Assembly: GCF_054482525.1 (NCBI RefSeq)
Contig: NZ_CM137006.1
Length of the DNA stretch: 64,000 nt
Direction: 5' to 3' (one strand)
Shown here: one piece after another, positions 25,481 through 25,665 of the stretch
Layout of the letters: every line of letters starts with the position of its first letter
How positions within the stretch are numbered: the first letter of the stretch is position 1
The notes under the pieces: generated by a model
Told to the model about the DNA's origin: nothing
Databases searched by the model: none
What the model saw: the letters and a program-made list of their open reading frames with translations, nothing else
Program-made: the position numbers and the translations under genes

Positions 25481-25496
25481 TGTGATTTGCATCACA
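25481..25496. promoter_or_regulatory. CRP binding site upstream of azuC
   Basis: Near-perfect TGTGAtttgcaTCACA palindrome. Confidence 0.7.
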
Positions 25497-25578
25497 TAAA
25501 GATTGATTTTTGTGATGATTGTCATATTATAAGCGCAAAGACAATAACACCTGTATAACAAATGGTCGGAGTGCCGCG

Positions 25579-25665
25579 ATGAAACTGCGCAAAATCCTGA
25601 AAAGTATGTTCAATAACTATTGCAAGACGTTCAAAGACGTACCGCCAGGCAATATGTTCCGATAA
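25579..25665 (+). CDS. azuC: Small membrane-associated protein AzuC (28 aa)
   Basis: ATG...MKLRKILKSMFNNYCKTFKDVPPGNMFR stop; below ORF-track cutoff; followed by terminator at 25667..25696. Confidence 0.7.
   Translation: MKLRKILKSMFNNYCKTFKDVPPGNMFR

What the first reader, a model, noticed from the sequence alone, without database searches (positions are those of the whole stretch)
25481..25665. Unlisted 28-codon ORF (AzuC-like) with its own CRP site and terminator
An ORF below the 60-aa track cutoff (25579..25665, MKLRKILKSMFNNYCKTFKDVPPGNMFR) is bracketed by a near-perfect CRP palindrome (25481..25496) and a rho-independent terminator (25667..25696). This makes a self-contained small-protein transcription unit between yecR and yecJ, matching the known small protein AzuC. 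It illustrates that real genes are missing from the ORF track.
Basis: partly seen in the sequence, partly recalled or inferred. Interest (0 to 1): 0.3.

Follow-up and report, generated by a model that had tools for sequence, protein, structure and literature searches.

The report
Known E. coli azuC/AzuCR gene
This is the already characterised E. coli gene azuC/AzuCR: a 164-nt RNA that encodes a 28-residue membrane protein, also acts as a regulatory RNA, and is turned off (not on) by CRP, so the finding is correct but ordinary.

Summary
The 28-codon ORF (25579..25665) is identical to E. coli AzuC. RefSeq annotates it in 5,418 of 5,426 complete E. coli genomes, and it scores 75.9 bits against NCBIfam NF033642 (cut-off 30).

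The whole transcript (25537..~25700) is 100% identical to the K-12 RNA AzuR/AzuCR (also called IsrB or IS092). Across 60 orthologous loci from at least 11 genera the ORF stays intact. All but one third codon position vary, and pN/pS is 0.16, so the ORF is under selection as a protein.

- The RNA has two functions. Published work shows AzuC binds GlpD, while the RNA base-pairs with cadA and galE and is itself repressed by the sRNA FnrS.
- CRP represses this promoter.
- A second CRP-like site (25511..25526) lies exactly 30 bp downstream of the palindrome and overlaps the promoter spacer and -10 box.

In both sites the half-sites are near-invariant and the spacers vary freely. The two sites are centred at -48.5 and -18.5.

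Verdict: observation confirmed, interpretation supported but incomplete, already known, low interest.

The parts
25481..25496 (.). CRP site I: perfect palindrome TGTGATTTGCATCACA, centred at -48.5 relative to the TSS. The FNR motif hits reported in PMC12266141 fall on the same bases.
   Evidence: GTGA/TCAC half-sites show 0.98 pairwise identity across 23 species against 0.41 for the N6 spacer. The core is present in 59 of 60 orthologous loci. The K-12 FNR coordinates 1988039-58 map to window 25480-99.
25503..25508 (+). -35 hexamer TTGATT
   Evidence: Promoter scan; 0.96 identity across species.
25511..25526 (.). CRP-like site II: TGTGATGATTGTCATA (1 mismatch), centred at -18.5. It overlaps the -35/-10 spacer and the first two bases of the -10.
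   Evidence: Half-sites show 1.00 identity against 0.51 for the N6 spacer. Its start is exactly 30 bp from the start of site I in 56 of 56 loci that have both. The papers mention two predicted CRP sites.
25525..25530 (+). -10 hexamer TATTAT (16-bp spacer from the -35)
   Evidence: 0.96 identity; ends 6 nt before the mapped TSS.
25537..25700 (+). AzuCR (AzuR/IsrB/IS092) transcript. The TSS is K-12 position 1988001. The K-12 annotation ends at window 25695; the published length of 164 nt gives 25700.
   Evidence: K-12 ncRNA azuR b4434. The alignment shows 100% identity over the transcribed region. TSS and length come from PMC8915982.
25548..25554 (+). FnrS target CACCTGT in the 5' UTR (25-31 nt upstream of the ORF), inside the conserved block 25543..25560
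   Evidence: Position from PMC8915982. It is complementary to FnrS nt 1-7/8 GCAGGTGA, -11.5 kcal/mol. The block shows 0.85 identity against 0.40 for neighbouring UTR.
25568..25571 (+). Shine-Dalgarno GGAG, 7 nt before the ATG
   Evidence: 0.96 identity; present in 58 of 60 loci.
25579..25665 (+). azuC coding sequence: 28 codons plus TAA, encoding an amphipathic, basic (+6) small protein
   Evidence: pN/pS 0.16, and variable columns at codon positions 1/2/3 are 10/11/26. Hydrophobic moment 0.60 for residues 2-19, reached by 0.7% of shuffles.
25621..25650 (+). My prediction of the AzuR base-pairing region, inside the ORF. Best local duplex is with cadA -16..+13. The published figure giving the actual region could not be read.
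   Evidence: -26.9 kcal/mol; 5 of 100 shuffles do as well. The galE duplex is no better than shuffles. The paper states only that the pairing region lies within the coding sequence.
25667..25693 (+). Intrinsic terminator: A6-CCTGC-TCCG-GCAGG-T7
   Evidence: The stem is invariant in 19 of 19 sequences. 0.93 identity. Present in 56 of 60 loci.

Best explanation
The locus is the E. coli azuC/azuR gene, which makes the dual-function RNA AzuCR (earlier names IsrB and IS092).

A sigma-70 promoter (TTGATT, 16 bp, TATTAT) starts a ~160-nt RNA at 25537. The RNA ends at the intrinsic terminator 25667..25693.

As an mRNA it is translated from GGAG/ATG (25568/25579) into the 28-residue amphipathic protein AzuC. 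[quoted passage not shown] As a base-pairing sRNA, sequence inside the ORF represses cadA and galE, and translation and pairing compete. The anaerobic sRNA FnrS pairs with CACCTGT in the 5' UTR and blocks AzuC synthesis.

Transcription is repressed by cAMP-CRP, so RNA levels are high in glucose. My inferred mechanism is that CRP occupies two sites on the same face of the helix, 30 bp apart, centred at -48.5 and -18.5. The downstream site lies across the -35/-10 spacer and excludes RNA polymerase.

Shown here:
- the anatomy of the locus
- sequence identity to K-12
- purifying selection on the peptide
- a phylogenetic footprint of both CRP sites, the promoter, the FnrS target, the SD and the terminator

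Taken from the literature: translation, GlpD binding, cadA/galE/FnrS pairing, and the direction of CRP control.

Inferred: which CRP site does the repressing.
For: - Identity: RefSeq annotates azuC under the match in 5,418 of 5,426 E. coli genomes. The gene order is ftnA-yecR-azuC-yecJ-ftnB. K-12 carries ncRNA azuR b4434 and CDS azuC b4663 at the homologous place. The transcribed region is 100% identical.
- Family model: NCBIfam NF033642 stress_AzuC, 75.9 bits against a cut-off of 30.
- Coding selection: the ORF is intact at 27-28 codons in 60 loci. 26 of 27 third positions vary, against 10 and 11 of 27 first and second positions. Pooled pN/pS is 0.16.
- Footprint, as identity across 23 species: CRP I half-sites 0.98, CRP II half-sites 1.00, -35 0.96, -10 0.96, SD 0.96, terminator 0.93. 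The N6 spacers score 0.41-0.51 and the flanks 0.30-0.37. The two sites are spaced exactly 30 bp apart in 56 of 56 loci.
- The CRP sites stay with azuC in 40 loci where no yecR is detected in the held flank.
- The FnrS 5' end is complementary to 25548-54.
- Literature: PMC8915982 reports the SPA-tagged protein, ribosome profiling, membrane localisation, the GlpD interaction, compensatory mutations for cadA, galE and FnrS, and CRP-mediated repression. PMC12266141 mentions two previously annotated CRP sites.
Against: - Nothing contradicts the identification.
- No CRP binding data could be examined here. Hemm 2010, the primary source for CRP repression, is not in the library.
- PMC12266141 assigns FNR, PhoP and NarP sites to the same stretch. 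It reports that occupancy changes are not mainly at the annotated CRP sites.
- My in-silico AzuR-target duplexes are weak evidence: cadA is matched by 5 of 100 shuffles, and galE is no better than shuffles.
- No Rfam family matches the RNA.
- No structural covariation is seen beyond the invariant terminator.
Confidence: 0.95

Rival explanations
1. The palindrome 25481..25496 is mainly an FNR operator giving anaerobic repression, not a CRP site.
For: PMC12266141 lists FNR binding sites at K-12 1988039-55 and 1988042-58. These map to window 25483-99 and 25480-96, on top of the palindrome. The paper reports de-repression when the motif is mutated or fnr is deleted, and cites a ChIP-seq study that measured FNR binding near the isrB promoter. 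FNR and CRP motifs share the geometry TGAT-N4-ATCA.
Against: The bases that distinguish CRP sites (GTGA/TCAC) from FNR sites (TTGA/TCAA), by established knowledge of the two consensus sequences, are the CRP type here. They are kept in 59 of 60 orthologues. Mutating this motif would also destroy the CRP site, so that experiment does not separate the two factors. The readings are not exclusive: both proteins could use the site.
Confidence: 0.2
2. CRP activates this promoter, as at most CRP-dependent promoters, so the small protein is made when glucose is absent.
For: A perfect consensus site lies upstream of a weak-looking promoter with 9 of 12 hexamer matches. This is the default expectation for a strong CRP site.
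Against: Published data show higher AzuC-SPA and AzuCR RNA in glucose, and de-repression in a crp mutant. The centres at -48.5 and -18.5 are not the class I (-61.5 and further upstream) or class II (-41.5) activating positions, by established knowledge. Site II overlaps the core promoter.
Confidence: 0.03
3. The RNA is a purely non-coding sRNA (as first listed, IS092/IsrB) and the 28-codon ORF is fortuitous.
For: Short ORFs are abundant by chance: 37 of at least 20 aa in 2.3 kb. The RNA does act by base pairing.
Against: Codon-periodic substitution and pN/pS 0.16 across 54 distinct sequences. The ORF is intact in all 60 loci, whereas the other two same-strand frames are open in only 2 and 13 of 54. 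The SD is conserved. A curated family model matches. Tagged-protein and ribosome-profiling data are published.
Confidence: 0.02
4. The CRP sites serve the divergent yecR gene rather than azuC.
For: yecR is transcribed away from the same intergenic region.
Against: Both sites keep a fixed register with the azuC -35/-10. They persist in 40 species loci where no yecR is detected in the held flank. Sequence between the sites and yecR is not conserved (0.37).
Confidence: 0.04

Closest known systems
AzuC / AzuCR (IsrB, IS092) of E. coli K-12 (Hemm 2008/2010; Raina et al. 2022, PMC8915982)
   Same: The peptide and the transcribed sequence are identical. The genomic position, promoter hexamers, both CRP-like sites, FnrS target and terminator are the same.
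   Different: Only two promoter SNPs relative to K-12, both in the N6 spacers of the CRP sites: 25490 C instead of T, and 25520 A instead of G.
Spot 42 / SpfP (PMC8916003)
   Same: A CRP-repressed enterobacterial dual-function RNA that encodes a very small protein and regulates carbon metabolism, including galactose genes.
   Different: The sequence is unrelated. SpfP (15 aa) binds CRP itself. AzuC binds GlpD, and its coding and pairing regions overlap.
SgrS / SgrT
   Same: A dual-function sRNA in enteric bacteria whose peptide and base-pairing activity both act on sugar metabolism.
   Different: In SgrS the coding and pairing regions are separate, and it is induced by SgrR rather than repressed by CRP (text of PMC8915982).
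VcdRP of Vibrio cholerae (PMC8672173)
   Same: An RNA of similar design encoding a 29-aa protein and a base-pairing region that balances carbon uptake and central metabolism.
   Different: Unrelated sequence and a different protein target. The pairing and coding regions are separate.

Membership tests
AzuC small protein (NCBIfam NF033642, equivalog) | Scores above the curated cut-off of the family HMM | tested here: met
   75.9 bits against a cut-off of 30, E = 1.3e-21, covering profile positions 1-26 of 26.
AzuC small protein (NCBIfam NF033642, equivalog) | Sequence identity and synteny with K-12 azuC (yecR-azuC-yecJ) | tested here: met
   28 of 28 residues identical. The same neighbours are present.
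AzuC small protein (NCBIfam NF033642, equivalog) | Evolves as a protein-coding sequence | tested here: met
   pN/pS 0.16. Variable columns at codon positions 1/2/3 are 10/11/26. The ORF is intact in 60 of 60 loci.
AzuC small protein (NCBIfam NF033642, equivalog) | Amphipathic helix | tested here: met
   Hydrophobic moment 0.60 for residues 2-19; 0.7% of shuffles reach it. I6, L7, Y14, C15, F18 and the TFKDVPPG-MF tail are invariant.
AzuC small protein (NCBIfam NF033642, equivalog) | Translated in vivo, membrane-associated, binds GlpD | not testable with these tools
   Published for the identical K-12 sequence (PMC8915982).
AzuCR dual-function sRNA | Discrete ~160-nt transcript with its own promoter and intrinsic terminator | tested here: met
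   Promoter found. The TSS was mapped by homology to K-12 1988001. The terminator folds at -16 kcal/mol, z = -4.9.
AzuCR dual-function sRNA | FnrS pairing site in the 5' UTR | tested here: met
   CACCTGT at 25548-54 is complementary to the FnrS 5' end. The surrounding block is conserved.
AzuCR dual-function sRNA | Base pairs with cadA and galE through sequence inside the ORF | tested here: inconclusive
   The best cadA duplex (25621-50 with cadA -16..+13, -26.9 kcal/mol) is matched by 5 of 100 shuffles. galE is no better than shuffles. Compensatory-mutation proof exists in PMC8915982.
CRP regulon promoter (repressed type) | Match to TGTGA-N6-TCACA | tested here: met
   Site I has 0 mismatches and site II has 1.
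CRP regulon promoter (repressed type) | Half-sites conserved while the spacer drifts | tested here: met
   Half-site identity 0.98 and 1.00 against spacer identity 0.41 and 0.51. There are 44 and 34 distinct 16-mers for the two sites.
CRP regulon promoter (repressed type) | Site overlaps core promoter elements | tested here: met
   Site II (25511-26) spans the spacer between the -35 (25503-08) and the -10 (25525-30).
CRP regulon promoter (repressed type) | CRP-cAMP binds and changes transcription | not testable with these tools
   Genetic evidence (crp mutant, glucose versus glycerol) is cited in PMC8915982. The primary paper is not held.
Any Rfam RNA family | Reaches a family's gathering score | tested here: not met
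   The best hit is STnc370 at 33.4 bits against a gathering score of 54, and it aligns only to the terminator. No Rfam family reached its threshold on this RNA.

The most novel reading that the evidence does not exclude
Across Enterobacteriaceae, selection appears to act on the peptide, the CRP-controlled promoter and the FnrS target, but not on the RNA sequence used for cadA/galE pairing. Synonymous sites inside the predicted pairing region vary freely. The base-pairing (AzuR) function could therefore be a recent, Escherichia-restricted addition to an older small-protein gene.

Separately, the FNR site published in 2025 may be the CRP operator read through a related motif.
Probability: 0.3. 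Interest if true: 0.35.

Novelty: already known. Interest (0 to 1): 0.08.

Why it matters
It matters little as a discovery. The gene, its protein, its RNA function and its CRP control have been published since 2002-2022, and the gene is in standard annotation.

The check does show that the first-stage reader can recognise a real small-protein gene from raw sequence. The comparative analysis adds three modest points:
- azuC was found in at least 11 genera, each time about 115-200 nt upstream of yecJ in loci that were retrieved through yecJ.
- Both CRP sites are conserved in a fixed 30-bp register.
- The site recently assigned to FNR has CRP-type discriminator bases in nearly all species.

Tried and rejected
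I anchored the comparative search on the neighbouring YecJ instead.
- The Rfam search gave only sub-threshold terminator look-alikes.
- The terminator scanner did not report the real terminator. Folding confirmed it.
- Whole-molecule RNAduplex runs gave unrealistically long duplexes, and a fine-grained local scan timed out. A coarser local scan with shuffles was used instead. It supports cadA only weakly and does not support galE.
- Hemm et al. 2010 (PMC2798279) is not held.
- No supplements are held for PMC8915982 or PMC12266141. The published figure positions of the CRP sites and of the AzuR pairing region could therefore not be read.
- The consensus RNA fold showed no covariation beyond an invariant terminator, so no structured-RNA claim is made.
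- The antisense 48-aa ORF (25522..25668) is open in 53 of 54 orthologues. I rejected it as a gene because the mirror frame of a constrained ORF tends to stay open.

Full report
**Observation.** An ATG at 25579 opens a 28-codon frame that ends with TAA at 25663..25665 and encodes MKLRKILKSMFNNYCKTFKDVPPGNMFR. A GGAG lies 7 nt upstream of the ATG.

TGTGATTTGCATCACA at 25481..25496 is a perfect TGTGA-N6-TCACA palindrome. The window has two perfect matches against 0.03 expected from shuffles. The other one sits upstream of flhD.

Immediately after the stop codon lies A6-CCTGC-TCCG-GCAGG-T7 (25667..25693). It folds at -16 kcal/mol with z = -4.9. The simple terminator scanner missed it.

The neighbours are yecR (minus strand) and yecJ (plus strand). 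A short ORF by itself is no evidence, since 37 ORFs of at least 20 aa overlap 2.3 kb here. The case rests on what follows.

**Identity.** A megablast of 25400..25760 finds the region in 5,419 of 5,426 complete E. coli genomes, and 5,418 of them hold at least 80% of the query. The listed full-length hits carry the feature 'azuC: stress response protein AzuC'. The best hit shows the gene order tyrP-yecH-ftnA-yecR-azuC-yecJ-ftnB-araF.

In K-12 MG1655 the homologous place carries both CDS azuC (b4663) and ncRNA azuR (b4434, 1987843..1988001). Alignment shows the window is 100% identical to K-12 from the TSS through the terminator. Only two promoter differences exist, both in the N6 spacers of CRP-type sites.

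The K-12 TSS 1988001 (PMC8915982) maps to window 25537. This is 7 nt past the end of the TATTAT box, which the promoter scan paired with TTGATT at a 16-bp spacing. The peptide scores 75.9 bits against the NCBIfam equivalog NF033642, whose cut-off is 30.

The peptide was too short for the protein search, so I anchored on YecJ and retrieved 80 species-representative loci from Enterobacteriaceae. tblastn finds an AzuC homologue directly upstream of yecJ in 58 of them.

- **Present:** Escherichia, the Citrobacter amalonaticus/sedlakii group, Enterobacter, Lelliottia, Leclercia, Kosakonia, Huaxiibacter, Silvania, Pseudescherichia, Pseudenterobacter and Pseudocitrobacter.
- **Absent at this position:** Salmonella (only a terminator-like remnant), C. 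koseri, the C. freundii complex, Buttiauxella, and one Escherichia lineage in which yecR and azuC are deleted.

All 60 copies, counting the two E. coli references, keep an open frame of 27-28 codons. Among 54 distinct nucleotide sequences, 26 of 27 third positions vary, against 10 first and 11 second positions. Pooled pN/pS is 0.16. The other two same-strand frames are open in only 2 and 13 of the 54 sequences.

I6, L7, Y14, C15 and the tail TFKDVPPG-MF are invariant, and the N-terminal 19 residues have a significant helical hydrophobic moment. The ORF is therefore under purifying selection as a protein. This agrees with the published SPA-tag and ribosome-profiling evidence.

**Regulatory anatomy.** A 23-species alignment gives a sharp footprint, measured as mean pairwise identity.

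| Element | Identity |
|---|---|
| Site I half-sites | 0.98 |
| Site I N6 spacer | 0.41 |
| -35 hexamer | 0.96 |
| Site II half-sites | 1.00 |
| Site II N6 spacer | 0.51 |
| -10 hexamer | 0.96 |
| 5' UTR block 25543..25560 | 0.85 |
| SD | 0.96 |
| Terminator | 0.93 |
| Flanks on either side | 0.30-0.37 |

The second site is TGTGATGATTGTCATA at 25511..25526, with one mismatch. It starts exactly 30 bp after site I in all 56 loci that carry both.

Relative to the TSS the two centres are at -48.5 and -18.5. Neither is a class I or class II activating position, by established knowledge. Site II lies across the spacer and into the -10. The sites persist in 40 loci where no yecR is detected in the held flank, so they belong to azuC.

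The conserved UTR block contains CACCTGT (25548..25554). This is the FnrS target that PMC8915982 places 25-31 nt upstream of the ORF. It is complementary to the first 7-8 nt of FnrS.

**How it works.** Published work on the identical K-12 sequence (PMC8915982) shows the following:

- The 164-nt RNA is translated into AzuC, an amphipathic inner-membrane protein.
- AzuC co-purifies with GlpD and raises dehydrogenase activity.
- The RNA also represses cadA and galE by base pairing through sequence inside the ORF, proven by compensatory mutations.
- Translation and pairing interfere with each other.
- FnrS represses AzuC translation.
- CRP represses transcription, so RNA levels are high only in glucose.

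From the anatomy I infer that repression works by CRP occupying site II over the core promoter, with site I three helical turns upstream helping. This step is inferred and was not tested.

My own duplex predictions place the best cadA interaction at 25621..25650. They are only weakly better than shuffles for cadA and not better for galE. No Rfam family matches the RNA, and no covariation supports structure beyond the terminator.

**A complication.** A 2025 study (PMC12266141) reports FNR, PhoP and NarP as further repressors. It lists FNR sites at K-12 1988039-55 and 1988042-58.

The CRP and FNR consensus sequences differ mainly in GTGA versus TTGA. Here the G/C discriminators are CRP-type and are kept in 59 of 60 orthologues. 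Mutating the motif would also remove the CRP site. Shared use by both factors is possible, and I cannot separate them with these tools.

**Comparison and verdict.** This is not a relative of AzuC. It is azuC/AzuCR itself, already in standard annotation and characterised in detail.

It omits the dual function, the repressive polarity of CRP, the second site and the FnrS control. Novelty: already known. Interest is low.

The comparative work adds small points:

- The gene was found in at least 11 genera. [quoted passage not shown]
- In every azuC-positive locus the gene sits about 115-200 nt upstream of yecJ. The loci were chosen through yecJ, so this is not an independent test of linkage.
- The two CRP sites keep a fixed register.
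- Synonymous sites in the presumed pairing region are free to vary, whereas the FnrS target is conserved.

Noticed in passing
window 34290..34305: This is the only other perfect TGTGA-N6-TCACA in the window (TGTGATCTGTATCACA). It lies about 270 bp upstream of the flhD-like ORF (34559..34918), which is followed by a flhC-sized ORF. It is presumably the known flhDC CRP site.
   Followed up: partly
window 25480..25499 (K-12 1988039..1988058): The FNR binding sites listed for isrB in PMC12266141 coincide with the perfect CRP palindrome. The G/C bases that distinguish CRP sites from FNR sites are conserved in 59 of 60 species, so the published motif mutation cannot separate the two factors.
   Followed up: partly
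L004:2240-2500 (Escherichia sp. MOD1-EC7003): yecR and the azuC promoter and ORF are deleted. Sequence downstream of ftnA is joined directly to a mutated copy of the azuC terminator (AAAAAAACTGTTCCGGCTGGTTTTTT) upstream of yecJ.
   Followed up: partly
L013:2361-2435 and L028:2361-2443 (Salmonella enterica subsp. arizonae and diarizonae): There is no azuC ORF upstream of yecJ. Only a weak match to the terminator end of the AzuCR alignment remains, suggesting loss in Salmonella or gain after the split.
   Followed up: partly
loci L003-L082, about 115-200 nt upstream of yecJ: azuC always sits immediately upstream of yecJ (DUF2766, unknown function) in 58 species, although the genes further upstream (yecR, ftnA) and downstream (ftnB) change. 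The loci were chosen through yecJ, so azuC without yecJ was not looked for.
   Followed up: no
window 25522..25668, minus strand: A 48-aa antisense ORF mirrors azuC, and its frame is open in 53 of 54 orthologous sequences. I read this as a by-product of the constrained sense frame, not as a gene.
   Followed up: partly
window 25387..25399: A G+C-rich hairpin CGCCTGGCAGGCG followed by CTATTTCTTG lies in the yecR-azuC divergent spacer and was flagged as terminator-like on the plus strand. No upstream plus-strand gene is obvious, and the sequence was not included in the cross-genus alignment.
   Followed up: no
window 25617..25654 (codons 14-25 of azuC): Third-codon positions in the region I predict to pair with cadA/galE vary freely across genera (2-4 states per site), whereas the non-coding FnrS target block is conserved. 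This hints that the sRNA targets may be lineage-specific.
   Followed up: no
summary (E. coli genomes): Seven of 5,426 complete E. coli genomes lack the region. One O157:H7 strain (NZ_CP076241.1) keeps only the first 45 bases of the query. Two matches lie on records typed as plasmids.
   Followed up: no
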